Part shown: positions 41,768 through 48,296 of the stretch, in pieces
How positions within the stretch are numbered: position 1 is the stretch's first letter
Layout: each line of letters opens with the position of its first letter
From: a virus
Strand: one strand, 5' to 3'
IMG/VR virus record: IMGVR_UViG_3300014039_000016
Span: 72,829 to 136,828 of that record
DNA: 64,000 nt
The notes under the pieces: generated by a model
The model's input: only the letters and a program-made list of their open reading frames with translations
The model's database searches: none
Told to the model about the DNA's origin: nothing
Translations under genes and position numbers: made by a program

Positions 41768-43099
41768 TTATTTCTTCTTTTTAGTTAAACATATTGCACA
41801 TAAAATCCAAAAAATACAGCATAAAGATACTACAACACATATAGTCCACCAGCCTAAAAGGCTTTCATCTCCAGTTTGTACGCTAACCGTCGAGATATCT
41901 GCGGCAATTTCTGGTGTCTTACTCGGCTTTATATCTTTAGACTCCGCAATTTCTTCATCTGCCTCTAACTCTGGTGCTTTTGTTTCTTTTGTCATTTCAG
42001 TAGAGCTAGTTGTAGTTTTCTGTACAGTAGTTGTTTCTAATTCTGTGGTTGTCTCTTCATTCTTAAAACTTTCCGTTTCATTTTGCTTAATTGTTTCTGT
42101 TGTTTGTTCAGAAGAACTCTCTGTTGTATTTTGTTCAGAAGATGATTCAACTGTTGTAGTTTCAGAATTTGATTTTGTAAAACCTCTAAAAGCTATTTTA
42201 TGAATTTCGCTACTATGCGTTAAAGTATTACAAATTACTGAGCCAATAAGGTTTCCTGCATTTATATTTACAGTAGCCATTGGCGCAAGAATAGTTCCTG
42301 AGAATATACAATTTTGATTAATATTTCCGCAATAAGCACCAAAATTCCAAAGAATATTGCCACTCCATGACTCCCAGCCTTCATTTTGTATTTTACTTTC
42401 AATATTTATATTTTCTTCATTATTAGTAATAACATTAATAACTACAATTTTATCTTTAGCTATTGATTTAATGTATTCTCCCTGGTCAATATCATGTGAT
42501 AAGTCTTCTGCATTAATATTAAAGACTATAATGTTATTATTCACAGGTGTAAATTTACCATTCCAATAATTATTTTTCATAATTTTTGAAGAGTTTACTT
42601 GACTATATAAATCATTCGCATAAACTGTTAAATCAGCAAAAAGCTTTTCAAAATCTAAAAATTCTCCATCGCTTTTTTGTACGACAGATAAAAGATTATT
42701 TGTAGTTCCAAAAACTTGATTATCTACGAACCACTGATTTCCACGCTTTTCTATATTATAAGTATCACTAGTAACTAATCTATTGGTTACTCCATTCTGA
42801 AAGACATATAATCCATTAATTAAATTTTGAATATAAGATGTATTGTATTCACCTGGAACTCGTGAATTTTCAATACTACAATAACTCCATAAGTTATGGA
42901 TTAAGACATTACCTTCTACATGCCCAATACCTTGTTTATATTCTTTCGTAACAACAGCATAATCAAGCGTAAAATCTTCTCCTGATGCTTTGGTTGTGTG
43001 TGGCAGTAGTATAAAAGTTGCTGTAATTATTAACATAATTGCTAATAAAAATGAGATTATTTTCTTGTTATTTTTCATTTCCTTCCCTCCATAAAACAA
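41768..43099 (-). CDS. cell-surface protein with signal peptide, Ser/Thr/Glu-rich linker and C-terminal membrane anchor
   Basis: N-terminal signal/TM, a TTVESSSEQNTTESSSEQTTE linker and a C-terminal hydrophobic segment followed by a KKKK tail. Confidence 0.4.
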   Translation of the reverse strand: MFYGGKEMKNNKKIISFLLAIMLIITATFILLPHTTKASGEDFTLDYAVVTKEYKQGIGHVEGNVLIHNLWSYCSIENSRVPGEYNTSYIQNLINGLYVFQNGVTNRLVTSDTYNIEKRGNQWFVDNQVFGTTNNLLSVVQKSDGEFLDFEKLFADLTVYANDLYSQVNSSKIMKNNYWNGKFTPVNNNIIVFNINAEDLSHDIDQGEYIKSIAKDKIVVINVITNNEENINIESKIQNEGWESWSGNILWNFGAYCGNINQNCIFSGTILAPMATVNINAGNLIGSVICNTLTHSSEIHKIAFRGFTKSNSETTTVESSSEQNTTESSSEQTTETIKQNETESFKNEETTTELETTTVQKTTTSSTEMTKETKAPELEADEEIAESKDIKPSKTPEIAADISTVSVQTGDESLLGWWTICVVVSLCCIFWILCAICLTKKKK

Positions 43100-43128: not shown

Positions 43129-44052
43129 TTAGTTCATTAATAAGATATAATAAAAATATCCTTCTGCGTCTTGCGCGATTCCTACTCCAATATAATTGTA
43201 ATTATTACTTAACATTAAAGCATTATGTGCTTTAGAATTTTTCCAGCCTTCAACCGCTTCCGCACAGCTAGAAAAATATCTTGCATAGTTTTCTCCAAAA
43301 TTACCAGATAGATTGTATAACTCAAAAATGCTACTTGCCGATTCAAAATTAGGTCTATAATGATGCATTGCGCCATCTGAAGTATATCCAATCATATTCC
43401 AATCTGAATAAGCTGATTCGGTAGCTCTATGTTCTGCGGCAAGTGATAATACATTATTATATTCTAAAGGATATAAGCTATTTGAAATACGATAATCATT
43501 AATTATTGATACAAGTTCTTGTATTTGATTATCATATTTCACAATATTATTCGCAGATATTTGTTTTAAGTCATTATCGGTTAGGATTTTTGGTTGTGGA
43601 ATTTCATTTGTATTACTATAATTAACTCCATTACAAATAATATTAGTTATAGTAGGTTGCGGAATTTCTGCTTGAGTCTCCTCCATCTCGGTAGAAGCTT
43701 CTATAACCTGAGTTTCCGCGTCAACATTTTTAGAATAAGTTTCTGTTTCTTCAATTTCTGTCTCTGTTTCTTCTTCTATTGTTGATTCTAATATAATATT
43801 TTCAACAGTTTCTTCTTCTATACTTCTATTTGTTTCGGTCTCGAAAATCATATTTCGTGCAGCCGCGATTTGTCCATTCTGCTGTATATCTACTATTGTG
43901 TTAGCACTTCTACCTTCCTTGAAAGCACAAATACCAGCGATTAAGAAGACTCCCGCAGTTAAAGAAACTGTTGAAATTTTTAATATCTTTCTATTCATTA
44001 ACAGTACCTCCTCTTTTGAAGAAGGACATACAAATGAAAAGTGAAGATGCAA
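43129..44052 (-). CDS. CAP/SCP (PR-1/YkwD-like) domain protein with N-terminal TM
   Basis: C-terminal ...GWKNSKAHNALMLSNNYNYIGVGIA matches the CAP domain. Confidence 0.55.
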   Translation of the reverse strand: MHLHFSFVCPSSKEEVLLMNRKILKISTVSLTAGVFLIAGICAFKEGRSANTIVDIQQNGQIAAARNMIFETETNRSIEEETVENIILESTIEEETETEIEETETYSKNVDAETQVIEASTEMEETQAEIPQPTITNIICNGVNYSNTNEIPQPKILTDNDLKQISANNIVKYDNQIQELVSIINDYRISNSLYPLEYNNVLSLAAEHRATESAYSDWNMIGYTSDGAMHHYRPNFESASSIFELYNLSGNFGENYARYFSSCAEAVEGWKNSKAHNALMLSNNYNYIGVGIAQDAEGYFYYILLMN

Positions 44053-44119
44053 CTGGCTAGCTTTTCAGCCCCTATAGCTTTGCGTCCTTACCTTTCGATA
44101 AGTTTGCCCATAAAAATAT

Positions 44120-44161: not shown

Positions 44162-45661
44162 TTAAATTGTAACACATGAATATCTGTCACTGTTAAGCTT
44201 AGCTAACATAAGGTCATATCCATCTTTTCCAGAAAGGATAGTTTCTACCATATTCATATTAAACCCAGAGACATAAGAGAATCTTCCGCCAAGAGCTGGA
44301 ATATTATTCTGTCTAGCATCTAAGTTCCAAAAGATGACCTTTGGAAGCTCATAGCCTTCAGCCGCCCACTTCTGAGCAATCTTCTCTAACTCTGTTGATA
44401 TATCGCCTTCTGTTACTGCACTACGATAACCATATTTAGCATCTCTGTTAGACTTGATATTGACGCAATAGTTAAATTCCATATCTGAAAAGATATAAAG
44501 TCTCTCTGGCATATCTGCTGGGGATACATTATCTTTCTTAGCTGTATTTAATAACATATCAAAAACAGCTTCGATGTTAGTGCTATTGCCCCAATCTGAA
44601 CGACCCGCTACTCTCTCGAACTTATCAACAATATCTGTTCCCTCAAACTTTATCAACTTAGGGGAATTAGAAAAAGTGATAAAATGATTAGCGAAAGGTC
44701 CATGACCTCTTTCTGCAATATATGCGCCCATTGATACAGCCGCTGCGATAGGTGTGCCATACATAGAACCTGAAGTATCTACGATACAAAGACCATTTTC
44801 TTCATGTCCATTGTAGTAATCCTTAAGATTAGTCCAGTATTTCTCAAGCATAGCAATATCTGTCTCAGTCTTGTCACTATAGTCAAAACACTTCTTAGCA
44901 ATATCTACTGGATTAAGGACATCTGCATTTACTGTTGTATTAGTGTCTTTAGCAAAAGACTCATACTTTTTAGCTATAATATCTCTGCGGGCGAAAGCAT
45001 TCTTATAGATAAGACCAGCCTTAGATGGTAACTTATCGAACTCAATCTCATCCCATCTATTTTCAGACATTAATCTCTCTACAATATTAATCTTCGCGCG
45101 AAGGGCGGATAAAAGCTTACGATATTCCTTATGAGTTAAACCAAGATAAACTCTTAACTTGTTACCAAGCTTAGCAGTCTCTCTTGAGGAGGCATTCTCT
45201 GAAGGCATCCACTTAGCAAGTAATGAAGGTGTCTTAGACTGAACATCAAGTGTAAGCTGCTCCTTAATCTTTGAAAATGCGAGATATTCTGCTGGTGTAC
45301 CAACTGTTGAATAGATAAGGTCGTCCCATCTACCAAAATTAGATACATTATCTAAATTACGCTTTGCAACTCCAGGATGATTCTCACAAAGCCAGCGGAA
45401 ACAAACTCTAAAGAAGCGTCTTTCTCCCATGCCTCCTCTGCAATCTCTGAGGTAGAATAAACACTTCATAGCTAGTAACTCATCTTCTTCTATCGCGTTC
45501 TTAAAAAGAAGAATGCAGTCCTTATCAGAACGATTTCTGAAAGCTCCGCCTAAAGCGAACATATCCAGCACAGCAGACTTAGTTGTGTTATGAGTGACAC
45601 CACCATTTTCTGTATTTGTAAAGTTATTGTCATCTACTAATCCGTTTAAAAATGAATTCAT
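44162..45661 (-). CDS. vWA-domain protein (DUF2828-like), possibly Ro60-related
   Basis: MIDAS-like CIVDTSGSMYG motif. Confidence 0.55.
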   Translation of the reverse strand: MNSFLNGLVDDNNFTNTENGGVTHNTTKSAVLDMFALGGAFRNRSDKDCILLFKNAIEEDELLAMKCLFYLRDCRGGMGERRFFRVCFRWLCENHPGVAKRNLDNVSNFGRWDDLIYSTVGTPAEYLAFSKIKEQLTLDVQSKTPSLLAKWMPSENASSRETAKLGNKLRVYLGLTHKEYRKLLSALRAKINIVERLMSENRWDEIEFDKLPSKAGLIYKNAFARRDIIAKKYESFAKDTNTTVNADVLNPVDIAKKCFDYSDKTETDIAMLEKYWTNLKDYYNGHEENGLCIVDTSGSMYGTPIAAAVSMGAYIAERGHGPFANHFITFSNSPKLIKFEGTDIVDKFERVAGRSDWGNSTNIEAVFDMLLNTAKKDNVSPADMPERLYIFSDMEFNYCVNIKSNRDAKYGYRSAVTEGDISTELEKIAQKWAAEGYELPKVIFWNLDARQNNIPALGGRFSYVSGFNMNMVETILSGKDGYDLMLAKLNSDRYSCVTI

Positions 45662-45717
45662 ACTCTTTTCTCTCCTTATTTATCTTATATTTTTAAGAAA
45701 GGCTATTATCATAGCCG

Positions 45718-45799
45718 AAAGACGCGAGTGGGAATCGAACCCACCACCCGAAGGTTTCAACGGAGTTGCAGTCCGCGTCAATACCACTCTGACACCGCG
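45718..45799 (-). tRNA. tRNA-Cys(GCA)-like with an atypical 15-nt variable arm
   Basis: Acceptor stem GACGCGG/TCGCGTC, T-arm GTGGG-TTCGATT-CCCAC and anticodon loop CTGCAAC. No encoded CCA. Confidence 0.6.
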
Positions 45800-45802
45800 T
45801 CA

Positions 45803-46147
45803 TTATACCACATATATATATGTTAATGTAAATTTAAACTTACTAAATGGAATATATAGTGCTTCAATATCAAAAACATCATTATTTTTATCTTGTACTT
45901 CTGTTTCAAAAACACCATTTTTATTATTTATATAGATACTTCCTTTTGTTCCATTTGCCTTTTTATAAAAAAATGGATATCCTAATCCCTTAGGTTCTAC
46001 TTCTATACCAAATTTTACCATATTTGTTACTGGAATTTCTACATATTCTACTGTTTCAGCAGCTCTATTAGGAAAATTAATATTTTCACTATAACTAGGA
46101 GTTTGTGAAACAATATTAGCATCTGTTATTTGCATAACTTTAAACAT
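45803..46147 (-). CDS. hypothetical protein
   Basis: ORF between two tRNA-like genes. Confidence 0.35.
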   Translation of the reverse strand: MFKVMQITDANIVSQTPSYSENINFPNRAAETVEYVEIPVTNMVKFGIEVEPKGLGYPFFYKKANGTKGSIYINNKNGVFETEVQDKNNDVFDIEALYIPFSKFKFTLTYIYVV

Positions 46148-46176
46148 TAATTACCACCTTTTCTTATTTGCTTTAA

Positions 46177-46260
46177 CTACGGCAGTGGGACTCGAACCCA
46201 CACGCCACAATGGCACAGGAATCAAAATCCTGCATGTCTATCCATTTTCATCATGCCGCA
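46177..46260 (-). tRNA. tRNA-Gln(UUG)-like with a long 14-nt variable arm
   Basis: Acceptor TGCGGCA/TGCCGTA, anticodon arm CAGGA-TTTTGAT-TCCTG, variable hairpin GCCATTGTGGC and T-arm GTGGG-TTCGAGT-CCCAC. Confidence 0.55.
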
Positions 46261-47028
46261 TTATATTTTATTCCATTCTTCTTCAGAATAAGAATTAATA
46301 TCTTTTTTTCGACTTGGAAGATTTTCTGATATACACCATTTAGTGATAGCTTTATCAGAAACACCATATTGTTCTCCTATCTTTGTAAATGGAGTAGTTC
46401 TAATAAGTTTTTTCAATTCTTCTCTTGATGGTCTTTTACATACTCTCTTTAATTTTGAAGAACATTCAAAACATAATCCAGAATTAGAATTTTTAGATAT
46501 TTCTTTATTACATTCTTTACAATAATACTTTATTTTTTTAGTATTATCAGAAATAATCCCCTTAGAAGAGATATGATTTCTATTTAATTTATTCTTTCCA
46601 TTTGTAGTATCTAACTGCTGATTGCAATTAGGACAAACCCAACGAAGATTTTCTAATCTATCATCATGGTTACAGCCATTTATATGGTCAAGAATTAAAG
46701 TTAATTCTTTTCCTTGCCATATAGGTTCTTGTCCGCAAATAGAACAAACATATGGAGTATATTCTCCTTTAACATACCATCTTCTTAAAGTTGCTTGACT
46801 AGCTGTTGAATCTTTAATAAAGATATTTCCCTCATTTCTCTCTATTCCTTTTTTAATAGCAAAATGAGAAATATCTATATTATATTTTTCTAATCTTGAT
46901 TTTACTGTGTTATTATTACTACCACTATGAGTAGCATATCCAAGTTTATCAATTACTTCTTTCATAGAAGAACTTGACTCTACTATTTGTTGAAGTTCTT
47001 CTTTTGAAAAATTATCAATTATTGCCAT
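46261..47028 (-). CDS. HNH homing endonuclease with C-terminal HTH module (paralogue family)
   Basis: CSICGQEPIWQGKELTLILDHINGCNHDDRLENLRWVCPNCN. The C-terminal 55 aa are shared with the ORFs at 58041 and 59549. Confidence 0.8.
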   Translation of the reverse strand: MAIIDNFSKEELQQIVESSSSMKEVIDKLGYATHSGSNNNTVKSRLEKYNIDISHFAIKKGIERNEGNIFIKDSTASQATLRRWYVKGEYTPYVCSICGQEPIWQGKELTLILDHINGCNHDDRLENLRWVCPNCNQQLDTTNGKNKLNRNHISSKGIISDNTKKIKYYCKECNKEISKNSNSGLCFECSSKLKRVCKRPSREELKKLIRTTPFTKIGEQYGVSDKAITKWCISENLPSRKKDINSYSEEEWNKI

Positions 47029-47383: not shown

Positions 47384-47412
47384 ATTATATCATAAAATTT
47401 TATAAAAATCAA
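47384..47412 (-). promoter_or_regulatory. sigma-70-type promoter driving the tRNA-Pro/His unit
   Basis: TTGATT-17-TgaTATAAT. Confidence 0.6.
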
Positions 47413-48296
47413 TTAAAGATACTCATATGTCCGCATAATGTACATTCACCTATGCGGCAATCCTGTGGGCATTCACTAACACGATAATTTTTTATTGGTA
47501 TCATGTTATGACAAGGAATAGCTATGTTCTTTTCAATATAAACATAATCATTATCTCGTGAGCATCTCATTCCTTTTGTATTGATAGCAATGCCATCTCT
47601 ACCAAACTGTTTTAAGACTTCATTACGAGTTGGATAAGTTTTTTCAGTACCGTCATCAAAGATTACTAAATATCTATCTCCAACTTTATAATTTCTAATT
47701 TTGTCTCCGCGTTTAGAAGTATCTAATAAGTCTTCTTCGCACATATAGTGACAGTTAATTTCTTCACATTTTTTTATAAAATCTTCAACCTGTTCATTTC
47801 CATTAGTAATAACTGTTTCACATTTAAAATTGTTACCTAAAGCTTCATTTAATACTTTAGCTTTCTCCATGAAAGTATCTAAATCCGCATATTCATAATG
47901 AAAACTTGCAGTCATTGAGAGAACTTTATTATGAGATGTAGCAACTTCATTAAGTACTAAAAAGTATTCCGCAGGCTTTGAAAGATTAGTTGTAATATTA
48001 ATCTTAGCAATAGGATAACTTTCATATAACTTATCTAATAAAATTCTTAAATCTTTAAATAAAGAAATCTCTCCACCAATTAAGTCTATCTTAACTTTTT
48101 TCTTATTTATCGTATAAAGTTCTTCCGCAATTCTAATAATATCATCTGCCGCGTCTAAACAAGTTGCAAAATCATAAATGAGATTACTTTCAGTTTGAAT
48201 AAAATCTCTACGAATACAATAGCTACAATGATAATTGCAAATATCTGTTAAACGCCATTTTATAACACACATTGTATCTAAATCAACAATCTTCAT
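47409..48296 (-). CDS. radical SAM enzyme with C-terminal Cys-rich (SPASM/twitch-like) region
   Basis: CNYHCSYC (Cx3Cx2C) near the N-terminus and C-terminal CPQDCRIGECTLCGH. Confidence 0.7.
   Translation of the reverse strand: MKIVDLDTMCVIKWRLTDICNYHCSYCIRRDFIQTESNLIYDFATCLDAADDIIRIAEELYTINKKKVKIDLIGGEISLFKDLRILLDKLYESYPIAKINITTNLSKPAEYFLVLNEVATSHNKVLSMTASFHYEYADLDTFMEKAKVLNEALGNNFKCETVITNGNEQVEDFIKKCEEINCHYMCEEDLLDTSKRGDKIRNYKVGDRYLVIFDDGTEKTYPTRNEVLKQFGRDGIAINTKGMRCSRDNDYVYIEKNIAIPCHNMIPIKNYRVSECPQDCRIGECTLCGHMSIFN

What the first reader, a model, noticed from the sequence alone, without database searches (positions are those of the whole stretch)
45718..46260. Class-I-anticodon tRNAs carrying long, class-II-like variable arms
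The Cys(GCA)-type gene at 45718-45799 has a 15-nt variable arm with the hairpin ACC-TTCG-GGT. The Gln(UUG)-type gene at 46177-46260 has a 14-nt variable arm with the hairpin GCCA-TTG-TGGC. The second Cys(GCA) gene at 61290-61368 has a 12-nt variable region made by tandem GGTTGCA duplication. Long variable arms are normally confined to Leu, Ser and Tyr in bacteria, and to Sec. These could be decoys for host tRNA-targeting nucleases or modification enzymes, suppressor or recoding tRNAs, or non-translational tRNA-like regulators. The first one lies 57 nt upstream of a vWA (DUF2828-like) gene. vWA plus a tRNA-like RNA recalls Ro60/Rsr with Y-RNA (YrlA) tRNA mimics.
Basis: seen in the sequence. Interest (0 to 1): 0.55.

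Follow-up and report, generated by a model that had tools for sequence, protein, structure and literature searches.

The report
Phage tRNAs with extra variable arms
A large gut phage encodes real cysteine and glutamine tRNAs that carry an extra hairpin arm normally seen only on leucine, serine and tyrosine tRNAs; this turns out to be a recurrent, apparently undescribed habit of phage tRNA clusters whose purpose is not yet known.

Summary
ARAGORN and the Rfam tRNA model place variable regions of 15, 14 and 12 nt in Cys(GCA) 45720-45801, Gln(UUG) 46177-46260 and Cys(GCA) 61290-61368, all on the minus strand. No alternative class-I register exists.

All three look like working elongator tRNAs rather than decoys or Y RNAs.
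- Cys#1 is a 7/5 tRNA-Cys (GCA, U73) with a 10-nt cUUCGg hairpin inserted before nt 48.
- The Gln gene has a tRNA-Leu body converted to Gln identity (UUG, A37, U1:A72, G73). It fills the slot that holds an ordinary tRNA-Gln in a close relative.
- Cys#2 carries a 7-nt tandem duplication.

Long-armed tRNA-Cys is recurrent. It makes up 17 of 46 unique Cys genes in related phages, against 10 of 221 for other class-I isotypes. I found 44 distinct arms, 41 of them hairpins, mostly closed by GNRA or UNCG tetraloops, and some stems covary.

The neighbouring vWA protein has a Ro60-like fold and belongs to a family already annotated as "Ro-like RNA binding protein". Its linkage to tRNA-Cys does not depend on arm length.

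The purpose of the arms is inferred, not shown. The best guess is escape from tRNA-cutting host defences. I rate this a new variant of a known kind.

The parts
45720..45801 (-). tRNA-Cys(GCA) no. 1. 82 nt, 7-bp acceptor stem and 5-bp T stem, U73, no encoded CCA, 15-nt variable region.
   Evidence: ARAGORN. Rfam tRNA 46.0 bits. The MFE fold shows a fifth arm.
45745..45759 (-). Variable region of Cys no. 1: TGAA + hairpin ACC-UUCG-GGU + G. Four unpaired bases lie 5' of the hairpin and one lies 3'.
   Evidence: Read from the sequence and ARAGORN brackets. Relatives carry GCC-TTCG-GGT and GCC-TTTG-GGT. Covariation count.
46177..46260 (-). tRNA-Gln(UUG). 84 nt, with a tRNA-Leu-like body, U1:A72, G73 and anticodon loop UUUUGAU.
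   Evidence: ARAGORN. Rfam 44.7 bits. 80% identical to a tRNA-Leu(UAG) in L001. Profile scores with the anticodon loop masked: Leu 20.4 bits, Gln 8.6 bits.
46202..46215 (-). Variable arm of the Gln gene: U + GCCA-UUG-UGGC + GU. The geometry (1 unpaired 5', 2 unpaired 3') is that of tRNA-Leu.
   Evidence: Geometry table.
61287..61368 (-). tRNA-Cys(GCA) no. 2. U73, encoded CCA (61287-61289), U4.C69 mismatch, 12-nt unstructured variable region.
   Evidence: ARAGORN. Rfam 55 bits over 61290-61368. The MFE fold does not form the acceptor stem.
61315..61326 (-). Variable region AGGTTGCAGGTT, made by a 7-nt tandem duplication (GGTTGCA x2, then GGTTCA).
   Evidence: Read directly from the sequence. 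V length.
45701..45716 (-). Terminator-like hairpin GGCTAT-GATA-ATAGCC followed by TTTCTT. It lies between Cys no. 1 and the Ro-like gene.
   Evidence: Consensus scan. This is a pattern match only.
44162..45661 (-). Ro60-like RNA-binding protein (DUF2828 + DUF7788/vWA, MIDAS motif DTSGS). It starts 58 nt downstream of Cys no. 1. It is context, not part of the tRNAs.
46261..47028 (-). HNH homing-endonuclease gene inserted between tRNA-His and the long-armed Gln gene. It is absent at this position in the close relatives L003 and L004.
   Evidence: PHROG 10822. Alignment of the slot.

Best explanation
The three loci are genuine phage elongator tRNA genes. They belong to the window's set of 22 tRNAs from a large, AT-rich phage related to human-gut metagenome phages.

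Cys no. 1 is a canonical 7/5 tRNA-Cys. It has the GCA anticodon, U73, and G15 with G as the last variable base. A stable 10-nt cUUCGg hairpin has been inserted just 5' of position 48.

The Gln gene is a tRNA-Leu body that keeps the Leu-type D arm, variable-arm geometry and T arm. It has been remoulded to glutamine identity. The anticodon loop changed from UUUAGGU to UUUUGAU, which gives UUG and A37. The acceptor end is U1:A72 with G73.

Cys no. 2 is an ordinary-shaped tRNA whose 5-nt variable loop was lengthened by a 7-nt slippage duplication. It may be decaying.

I expect the host's CysRS, and GlnRS or GluRS plus GatCAB, to charge them, and that they read UGY and CAA codons during infection. 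These steps are inferred.

The extra arms are kept as hairpins by selection. The most likely reason, also inferred, is that a remodelled variable region makes the phage's own tRNAs poor substrates for host nucleases that recognise or cut tRNAs. Decoding then continues when host tRNAs are destroyed.
For: tRNA status
- ARAGORN and Rfam scores are well above threshold, with full cloverleaves.
- U73 follows the acceptor stem in every 7/5 long-armed Cys examined except two metagenome genes, L115 and L135.
- The standard code is in use, and the codons are used: TGT 179, TGC 64, CAA 258, CAG 200.

Gln remoulding
- The gene is 80% identical to a tRNA-Leu(UAG) and about 70% to other Leu genes, but at most 69% to ordinary Gln genes.
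- With the anticodon loop masked, a Leu profile gives 20.4 bits over nt 6-79. A Gln profile gives 8.6 bits over the T arm only.
- Between the conserved tRNA-His and the conserved start of the next ORF, the 94%-related phage L003 has a normal 74-nt Gln(UUG). L004 and the window have the long-armed gene. They are positional alternates.

Selection on the arms
- 17 of 46 unique Cys genes are long, against 10 of 221 for other class-I isotypes.
- There are 44 distinct long Cys variable regions, and 41 form a hairpin. Of 22 tetraloops, 13 are GNRA and 2 are UNCG, against about 5% expected. The proportion matches that of genuine Leu and Ser arms in the same loci.
- Stems covary: U:G, C:G and U:A in the L017 group, A:U and G:U in the window group. 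The V helix is 97% paired, and 2 of 3 pairs change on both sides.
- Intermediate relatives have short Cys genes at the same position, so the arm is a recent gain.

Precedent for evasion
- T5/SP15 tRNA-Tyr resists because of its longer variable loop, and swapping that loop removes the protection (PMC12673091, PMC13096335).
- VapC4 targets tRNA-Cys(GCA), and VapC52 cuts a variable loop (PMC13273310).
- The window also encodes a cyclic-phosphate-processing cREC domain protein inside the tRNA cluster and a Ro60-like protein. Both belong to families linked to RNA repair in phages (PMC7824862).
Against: - Nothing here shows expression, processing or charging.
- The Gln gene lacks E. coli GlnRS elements G10 and G3:C70, and has G2:U71. 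Its large Leu-type D loop could hinder GatCAB. Its identity is therefore not secure.
- Cys no. 2 has a weak acceptor stem and an unstructured insert, which fits a decaying gene.
- No nuclease that attacks tRNA-Cys or tRNA-Gln in the unknown host is known.
- Adding an arm could equally create a target.
- The covariation rests on few, closely related sequences.
- Hairpin maintenance could reflect only avoidance of misfolding after a neutral insertion.
Confidence: 0.6

Rival explanations
1. Neutral tolerance. The arms are insertions and duplications that persist because the variable region is the least constrained part of a tRNA, and because CysRS, GlnRS and the ribosome do not read it. The tRNAs work in translation, but the arm does nothing.
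For: - Cys no. 2 shows the raw mutational process, a 7-nt slippage duplication that leaves an unstructured 12-nt loop.
- Several relatives have unstructured 8-14-nt loops: L009, L046 and L052.
- The same phages also break the rule the other way, with short-armed Leu (7 of 35) and Tyr (3 of 8) genes. Cultured Felixounavirus phages do too.
- E. coli LeuRS is known not to need the arm (PMC9976931).
- Class I synthetases leave the variable side facing solvent (textbook knowledge, not tested here).
Against: - The isotype bias is strong: Cys 37% against 0 of 35 Gly, 0 of 33 Arg, 0 of 15 Pro and 0 of 14 His.
- 15 of 22 tetraloops are GNRA or UNCG.
- Stems are kept through compensatory changes.
- Many unrelated arm sequences fall into two recurrent geometries.
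Confidence: 0.2
2. Decoy. The arm-bearing tRNAs mainly act as competitive substrates or inhibitors that soak up a host nuclease or modification enzyme that recognises long variable arms. They are not mainly adaptors in translation.
For: [quoted passage not shown]
- One of the two Cys arm geometries (1 unpaired 5', 3 unpaired 3') equals that of tRNA-Tyr in the same loci.
Against: - Anticodon GCA is invariant and U73 nearly so in the long-armed genes. A pure decoy would not need this.
- The window's own arm geometry (4 unpaired 5', 1 unpaired 3') resembles no canonical class II tRNA.
- The long-armed Gln replaces the only Gln(UUG) gene in its slot.
Confidence: 0.1
3. Ro partner. The tRNA-Cys next to the Ro60-like gene is that protein's RNA ligand or client, a tRNA-based counterpart of YrlA. 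The arm is a binding handle.
For: - The protein has a Ro60-like fold.
- The tRNA is on the same strand, 58 nt upstream.
- tRNA-Cys is the nearest upstream tRNA in 51 of 76 informative loci, while the second-nearest varies.
- Y RNAs lie within 4 kb of Ro60 on the same strand and mimic tRNA (PMC4201824).
- In cultured phages the family sits beside tRNA clusters, and in Listeria phage LP-125 it sits near an RtcB ligase.
Against: - The linkage holds for short and long Cys genes alike.
- The tRNA is complete with Cys identity elements, and there is no YrlA or Y RNA match.
- A terminator-like hairpin separates the tRNA from the gene.
- The loci are homologous phages, so shared gene order may be simple inheritance.
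- No Pfam TROVE match was found.
Confidence: 0.08
4. Deliberate mistranslation. The Leu-bodied tRNA with anticodon UUG is charged by LeuRS or SerRS and inserts Leu or Ser at CAA codons, as nematode nev-tRNAs do.
For: - The gene has a Leu-type D arm, A15/U48 and Leu arm geometry.
- LeuRS and SerRS ignore the anticodon.
- G73 on a Leu body can shift identity towards Ser in some systems (PMC9976931).
Against: - A73, the main LeuRS determinant, is replaced by G73.
- The acceptor end has U1:A72, G2:U71, C3:G70 and U11:A24, which does not fit bacterial SerRS.
- A37 and U38 were changed to the Gln pattern along with the anticodon.
- The gene sits in the slot of a canonical tRNA-Gln.
Confidence: 0.05

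Closest known systems
selC* tRNA-Cys (Mukai et al. 2017, PMC5389517)
   Same: These are cysteine tRNAs with U73 and a GCA (or UCA) anticodon that carry a long variable arm. They are reported from Clostridia, Bacilli and other anaerobes, and are charged by CysRS.
   Different: - selC* species are Sec-like, with longer acceptor stems (8/4 in some) and longer anticodon stems. They occur in genomes with the selenocysteine machinery.
- The window's gene is a plain 7/5 tRNA with a 5-bp anticodon stem and a 7-nt D loop. It lies in a phage tRNA cluster. Its hairpin is inserted after four unpaired bases.
nev-tRNAs of nematodes (PMC3333845) and alloacceptor tRNA remoulding
   Same: A class II (Leu-type) body carries an anticodon of a class I amino acid. 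This resembles the window's Gln(UUG) gene.
   Different: nev-tRNAs are charged with leucine, because LeuRS ignores the anticodon. The window's gene has also lost A73 and gained U1:A72, G73 and A37, so the identity itself appears to have been switched to Gln.
Phage T5/SP15 tRNA-Tyr with a distinctive variable loop (PMC11555353, PMC12673091, PMC13096335)
   Same: A phage-encoded tRNA has a variable region that differs from the host's, and this has been shown to matter for defeating a tRNA-cutting defence (PtuAB). It lies in a tRNA cluster with homing endonucleases.
   Different: That is a class II tRNA with a lengthened arm. Here, class I isotypes acquire an arm de novo, and no cognate defence is known.
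Ro60/Rsr with YrlA tRNA-like Y RNA (PMC4201824)
   Same: A Ro60-fold protein is encoded within 4 kb of, and on the same strand as, a tRNA-shaped RNA.
   Different: YrlA lacks an anticodon arm and has a Ro-binding stem formed by its ends. The RNAs here are complete tRNAs, no Y RNA model matches, and the protein has no Pfam TROVE match.
allo-tRNAs (PMC5389517)
   Same: These are irregular long-armed tRNAs with many non-Ser anticodons, some of them in phages and tRNA polycistrons.
   Different: allo-tRNAs have 8/4 or 9/3 acceptor/T architecture and mostly Ser-type identity (G73 or U73 with a long arm). The window's genes are 7/5.

Membership tests
Bacterial elongator tRNA (Rfam RF00005) | Cloverleaf that scores above the family's gathering score. 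| tested here: met
   46.0, 44.7 and 55 bits against a gathering score of 29. ARAGORN calls all three.
tRNA-Cys (CysRS substrate) | GCA anticodon and U73 discriminator. In E. coli, also a G15:G48 pair. | tested here: met
   Both Cys genes have GCA and U73. Cys no. 1 has G15 and G as its last variable base; Cys no. 2 has A15 and U. Charging itself is not testable here.
tRNA-Gln (GlnRS, or GluRS plus GatCAB, substrate) | U1:A72, G73, U35, G36, A37, U38. In E. coli, also G2:C71, G3:C70 and G10. | tested here: inconclusive
   Present: U1:A72, G73 and loop UUUUGAU. Absent or altered: G2:U71, C3:G70 and A10.
Class II tRNA (Leu/Ser/Tyr type) | Variable arm of 10 nt or more that forms a stem-loop. | tested here: met
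   Cys no. 1 has a 3-bp stem with a UUCG loop. Gln has a 4-bp stem with a 3-nt loop. Cys no. 2 has no stem, so it does not meet the feature.
Class II tRNA (Leu/Ser/Tyr type) | Canonical arm geometry and an enlarged D loop with a 3-bp D stem. | tested here: inconclusive
   Gln has Leu geometry (1 unpaired 5', 2 unpaired 3') and a 10-12-nt D loop. Cys no. 1 has geometry 4/1, not seen in Leu, Ser or Tyr of the same loci, and a 7-nt D loop with a 4-bp stem.
selC* tRNA-Cys / tRNA-Sec-like | Extended acceptor stem (8/4 or similar) and a 6-bp anticodon stem. | tested here: not met
   The gene has a 7-bp acceptor stem, a 5-bp T stem and a 5-bp anticodon stem. By contrast, the Dehalococcoidia genes found are 8/4 with G73.
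YrlA / Y RNA | Ro-binding stem formed by the RNA ends, and a tRNA-like domain without an anticodon arm. | tested here: not met
   No Rfam family other than tRNA, tmRNA and a riboswitch matched, even at E <= 10. A complete anticodon arm is present.
YrlA / Y RNA | Encoded within 4 kb of the Ro60 gene on the same strand. | tested here: met
   Cys no. 1 is 58 nt upstream on the same strand. Cys is the nearest upstream tRNA in 51 of 76 loci.
Ro60 / TROVE protein (for ORF 44162-45661) | Helical-repeat domain followed by a vWA domain with a MIDAS motif. | tested here: met
Ro60 / TROVE protein (for ORF 44162-45661) | Sequence-level match to Pfam TROVE or to solved Ro60 chains. | tested here: not met
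   Pfam gives only DUF2828, DUF7788 and a weak VWA_2. phmmer and a profile search against PDB sequences find no Ro60.
Suppressor / recoding tRNA | Anticodon complementary to a stop codon, or a mismatch between anticodon and identity elements. | tested here: not met
   The anticodons are the sense anticodons GCA and UUG. Stop codon use is ordinary: TAA 34, TGA 7, TAG 2. Identity elements agree with the anticodons.

The most novel reading that the evidence does not exclude
Phage tRNA clusters systematically equip selected class I tRNAs (above all tRNA-Cys, also Lys, Gln, Met and Ile) with a structured variable arm that acts as a molecular tag. In the most novel version, the tag lets the adjacent Ro60-like protein, together with the cluster's cyclic-phosphate-processing and repair enzymes, recognise the phage's own tRNA-Cys as partner or client. 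That would be a tRNA-based equivalent of the Ro60-Y RNA particle, while the tRNA still works in translation.
Probability: 0.08. Interest if true: 0.85.

Novelty: new variant of a known kind. Interest (0 to 1): 0.55.

Why it matters
- The rule that only Leu, Ser, Tyr and Sec tRNAs carry long variable arms underlies tRNA classification, isotype-specific gene finders and ideas about synthetase recognition.
- Here it is broken repeatedly, and apparently under selection, in phage tRNA clusters. The breaks go both ways: long-armed Cys, Lys and Gln, and short-armed Leu and Tyr.
- If the arms protect phage tRNAs from host nucleases, variable-region remodelling would become a general counter-defence alongside anticodon-loop mutation.
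- The Leu-to-Gln gene is a natural case of a tRNA changing amino-acid identity across the class I/II body boundary.
- Naturally arm-tolerant CysRS and GlnRS substrates are of practical interest for tRNA engineering, for example aptamer-tagged or orthogonal tRNAs.
- For annotation, Rfam's default filters missed one of these genes.

Tried and rejected
- Alternative class-I register: rejected. Rfam aligns the extra bases as a variable-region insert.
- Sec-like 8/4 architecture: rejected.
- Y RNA or YrlA near the Ro-like gene: no Rfam match in the window at E <= 10, nor in 15 related loci at the gathering score.
- Sequence-level TROVE or Ro60 relationship: none in Pfam or in PDB sequence and profile searches. 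Only fold comparison showed it.
- Close cultured relatives:
  - A 3.4-kb blastn against 50,697 phage records found only a tRNA-Leu in a faecal contig and an unrelated ORF fragment.
  - The 82-nt Cys gene alone found nothing.
  - A second long-armed Cys gene found only partial tRNA matches in Bacillus phages.
- Relatives of Cys no. 2: no hit in IMG/VR for its anticodon arm. I therefore could not test whether the duplication is conserved.
- Metagenome scan for the window-type Cys arm with a free hairpin: no hit. The broader pattern was used instead.
- Arm tolerance explained by synthetase class: considered, but it rests on Cys alone and was dropped as an argument. Long arms are absent from Arg, Trp and Val, which have class I enzymes, and present in Lys.
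- Function of the radical SAM gene beside the tRNAs: NCBIfam gave only sub-threshold matches.
- Literature searches for long-armed tRNA-Cys in phages or tRNA arrays found no description.
- The supplement of PMC5389517, which shows the Firmicutes selC* structures, is not held.
Full report
**Setting.**
- The window has 32% G+C.
- All 43 ORFs of 150 aa or more lie on the minus strand, and the standard genetic code is in use.
- ARAGORN finds 22 tRNA genes between 45.7 and 63.6 kb, all on the minus strand. They are interspersed with two HNH endonuclease genes and genes for a PD-(D/E)XK nuclease, an endolysin, a pre-neck-appendage-like protein and a radical SAM protein.
- No close cultured relative exists in 50,697 phage records.
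- Close relatives are IMG/VR contigs of 145-147 kb (L003, L004) and a sequencing-run contig (L106). A more distant relative (L103) comes from a human-gut metagenome.

**The observation.**
- ARAGORN and the Rfam tRNA covariance model agree on three genes with over-long variable regions:
  - Cys(GCA) at 45720-45801 (15 nt);
  - Gln(UUG) at 46177-46260 (14 nt);
  - Cys(GCA) at 61290-61368 (12 nt).
- The model treats the extra bases as an insert in the variable region and offers no other register.
- Cys no. 1 reads TGAA-[ACC-UUCG-GGU]-G. Gln reads U-[GCCA-UUG-UGGC]-GU. Both hairpins appear in unconstrained minimum-free-energy folds.
- Cys no. 2 reads AGGTTGCAGGTT. This is a 7-nt tandem duplication of the junction between an ordinary AGGTT loop and the T stem. 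It forms no hairpin. The gene also has a U4.C69 mismatch and is the only tRNA in the window with an encoded CCA.
Otherwise the description is exact.

**What the Cys gene is.**
- Cys no. 1 has a 7-bp acceptor stem, a 4-bp D stem with a 7-nt loop, a 5-bp anticodon stem, loop CUGCAAC, a 5-bp T stem and U73.
- GCA and U73 are the main CysRS determinants (PMC5389517).
- Removing the 10-nt hairpin leaves TGAAG, an ordinary 5-nt loop. I therefore read the arm as an insertion just before position 48.
- The gene is not Sec-like, so it is not a selC* tRNA-Cys in the sense of Mukai et al.
- Its nearest relatives are other Cys tRNAs.

**What the Gln gene is.**
- Its best match is a tRNA-Leu(UAG) from a faecal phage contig, at 80% identity. 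The match shares the D arm pattern, the anticodon stem CAGGA/UCCUG, the arm U-GCC-GCGA-GGC-GU and the T arm.
- Other Leu tRNAs follow at about 70% identity. Ordinary Gln tRNAs reach at most 69%.
- With the anticodon loop masked, a profile of 76 Leu tRNAs scores 20.4 bits over nt 6-79. A profile of 48 Gln tRNAs scores 8.6 bits over the T arm only.
- Three things differ from Leu:
  - the loop is UUUUGAU instead of UUUAGGU, which gives anticodon UUG and A37;
  - the first base pair is U1:A72;
  - the discriminator is G73 instead of A73.
- These are the features that mark bacterial tRNA-Gln, and A73 is the main LeuRS determinant (PMC9976931).
- In L003, whose neighbouring protein is 94% identical, the same slot holds a normal 74-nt tRNA-Gln(UUG). 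The slot lies between tRNA-His and the conserved ribosome-binding site of the next ORF.
- L004 holds the long-armed gene there. The window holds an HNH gene plus the long-armed gene.
- I read this as a Leu body remoulded to Gln identity that is used interchangeably with a canonical Gln gene.
- The identity is not fully secure, because G10 and G3:C70 are missing.

**How common this is.**
- I fetched 86 loci through the neighbouring protein, not through tRNA shape.
- Counting unique sequences from these loci and the window, 17 of 46 Cys tRNAs have a variable region of 8 nt or more. The figure for all other non-Leu/Ser/Tyr isotypes is 10 of 221 (Fisher p = 1.5e-8).
- The other long ones are Lys(UUU), Gln, Met and Ile(UAU).
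- None occur among 35 Gly, 33 Arg, 15 Pro, 14 His, 13 Thr or 9 Trp genes.
- The rule is also broken the other way. Seven of 35 Leu and 3 of 8 Tyr genes are short, as are all three Leu genes of a cultured Felixounavirus.
- Pattern scans found further long-armed 7/5 Cys genes:
  - in unrelated phage contigs of 94-411 kb;
  - in 32 metagenome loci, mostly inside dense tRNA clusters.
- The same pattern hit only 11 loci in one genome for each of 185,579 species.
  - Seven were the known Sec-like 8/4, G73 type in Dehalococcoidia.
  - Three were tRNA arrays binned with Phycisphaerae.
- Intermediate relatives of the window's phage have short Cys genes at the same position, so the arm is a recent gain in this lineage.

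**Are the arms selected?**
- Across all sources there are 44 distinct long Cys variable regions, and 41 form a hairpin.
- Of the 22 tetraloops, 13 are GNRA and 2 are UNCG. About 5% would be expected by chance.
- The proportions match genuine Leu (13 of 20) and Ser (16 of 20) arms from the same loci.
- The arms fall into two geometries.
  - Four unpaired bases 5' and one 3' (the window's type). This is not seen in Leu, Ser or Tyr.
  - One unpaired base 5' and three 3'. This is Tyr-like.
- In a 12-sequence alignment the arm helix is 97% paired, and two of its three pairs change on both sides. The changes include U:G, C:G and U:A among near-identical tRNAs.
- The sample is small and the sequences are related, so this is supportive rather than conclusive.

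**The neighbouring protein.**
- ORF 44162-45661 matches DUF2828 and DUF7788 and has an intact MIDAS motif.
- Sequence and profile searches find no Ro60.
  - Foldseek: 2nvo E = 1e-7, then 2i91 and 1yvp.
- This resemblance is already recognised.
  - PHROG 850 is named 'RNA-binding protein'.
  - 701 cultured phage genomes carry the family.
  - It is annotated 'Ro-like RNA binding protein' in mycobacteriophages.
- In Felixounavirus the gene abuts the 22-tRNA cluster. In Listeria phage LP-125 it lies between a tRNA cluster and an RtcB ligase.
- That fits the published view of TROVE proteins as RNA-repair platforms in large phages (PMC7824862).
- In the gut and rumen clade, tRNA-Cys is the nearest upstream tRNA in 51 of 76 loci, with a median gap of 259 nt. 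The second-nearest tRNA varies.
- The linkage holds for short and long Cys genes alike.
- A terminator-like hairpin lies between the tRNA and the gene, and no Y RNA model matches.
- The Ro idea is therefore right about the protein but unsupported for the tRNA arms.

**Mechanism.**
- Shown:
  - gene structure;
  - identity elements;
  - the cassette replacement;
  - recurrence;
  - hairpin conservation.
- Inferred:
  - the tRNAs are charged with Cys and Gln and used in translation;
  - the arm is adaptive.
- The most concrete precedent concerns tRNA-Tyr.
  - T5/SP15 tRNA-Tyr resists through its longer variable loop.
  - Replacing that loop abolishes the protection (PMC12673091, PMC13096335, PMC11555353).
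- Toxins that target tRNA-Cys(GCA) or cut a variable loop are also known (PMC13273310).
- The window has a cREC cyclic-phosphate-processing domain gene inside the tRNA cluster and homing endonucleases next to tRNA genes. Homing endonucleases are reported to drive amplification of anti-defence tRNA loci (PMC13096335).
- I therefore favour this reading: working tRNAs with a selected variable-region remodelling, probably for escape from tRNA-targeting defences.
- Neutral tolerance is the main rival.

**Novelty.**
- Long-armed Cys tRNAs (selC*), class II bodies with class I anticodons (nev-tRNAs, allo-tRNAs) and defence-evading phage tRNAs are all known.
- Ten full-text searches did not turn up either of the following:
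  - a widespread 7/5, U73 tRNA-Cys with a structured arm in phage tRNA clusters;
  - a Leu body switched to Gln identity.
- I rate it a new variant of a known kind, of moderate interest.

Noticed in passing
window 44045-44118 (-), with ORFs 43129-44052 (-) and 41768-43099 (-): A c-di-GMP-I riboswitch aptamer (Rfam 61.6 bits, gathering score 35) follows a terminator-like hairpin and a promoter-like site. It precedes a CAP-domain secreted protein and then an adhesin-like protein (pAdhesive_15). This would be a phage-borne riboswitch controlling secreted or surface proteins.
   Followed up: partly
window 63167-63457 (-): A 96-aa ORF between tRNA-Ala and tRNA-Thr matches PF20274 cREC_REC (cyclic-phosphate processing receiver domain, E = 3e-21). 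The literature links this family to RNA ligases and repair of cleaved tRNA in large phages.
   Followed up: partly
window 46261-47028 (-) and 58041-58784 (-): Two paralogous HNH homing-endonuclease genes (PHROG 10822) each sit just upstream of a Gln tRNA gene. The first is absent from the same slot in L003 and L004, so it is a recent insertion.
   Followed up: partly
window 57783-57856 (-) and 63005-63079 (-): tRNA-Gln(CUG) has anticodon loop GGCUGGG, with G33 instead of the near-universal U33. tRNA-Ala(UGC) has loop CCUGCAA, with C33. Both score well with Rfam (59 and 71 bits).
   Followed up: no
window 45720-45801 (-): Rfam's default speed filters at the gathering threshold missed the long-armed Cys gene. 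It scores 46 bits with laxer filters. The window's tRNA-Tyr (60328-60412) was also absent from that listing.
   Followed up: partly
L007 1615-1698, L036 3426-3509, L045 2380-2465, L058 1644-1730: A family of tRNA-Lys(UUU) genes has 15-18-nt variable arms. Three of the four share the flanks c...atc and differ in the stem (GAGA/TCTC, AAGC/GCTT, AGA/TCT). L083 also has Lys(CUU) and Gln(UUG) genes with GNRA-capped arms.
   Followed up: partly
L015, L016, L033, L036, L054, L061 and cultured phage L141 (Escherichia phage skuden, 7780-9176): tRNA-Leu genes have only 5-7-nt variable loops, and some tRNA-Tyr genes have 4 nt (L005, L033, L079). These are class-I-shaped versions of class II isotypes. All three Leu genes of a Felixounavirus are of this kind.
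   Followed up: partly
L033 957-1055, L034 139-237, L035 604-702; L043, L052, L070 (CTA anticodons); L030, L036, L040, L056, L070 (tmRNA): Related phages carry 99-nt tRNA-like genes with a 4-base anticodon (taaa). They also carry long-armed amber-suppressor-type tRNAs (88-91 nt) and phage-encoded tmRNAs inside the tRNA clusters.
   Followed up: no
L093, L095-L097, L099, L101, L102 (Dehalococcoidia genomes): 92-93-nt Sec-like (8/4) tRNAs with a GCA anticodon and G73 are conserved across several Dehalococcoidia/SAR202 genomes. These are probably the known class of Sec-like tRNAs that read Cys codons.
   Followed up: no
L094, L098, L100 (contigs binned with Phycisphaerae): Arrays of up to 31 tRNA genes within 8-kb stretches combine a long-armed Cys gene (GCGC-GNRA-GCGC, U73) with short-armed Leu genes. 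They look like a mobile or viral tRNA array binned into MAGs.
   Followed up: no
L143 (Listeria phage LP-125) 4001-8066: The DUF2828 Ro-like gene lies between a tRNA cluster and an RtcB-like ligase and a DUF1768 (NADAR) gene. This arrangement resembles the bacterial rsr-yrlA-rtcBA operon.
   Followed up: no
window 47409-48296 (-): A radical SAM protein with a Cys-rich C-terminus lies directly beside tRNA-Pro and tRNA-His. Only sub-threshold matches were found (viperin-like, MoaA, twitch-domain), and its function is unknown.
   Followed up: partly
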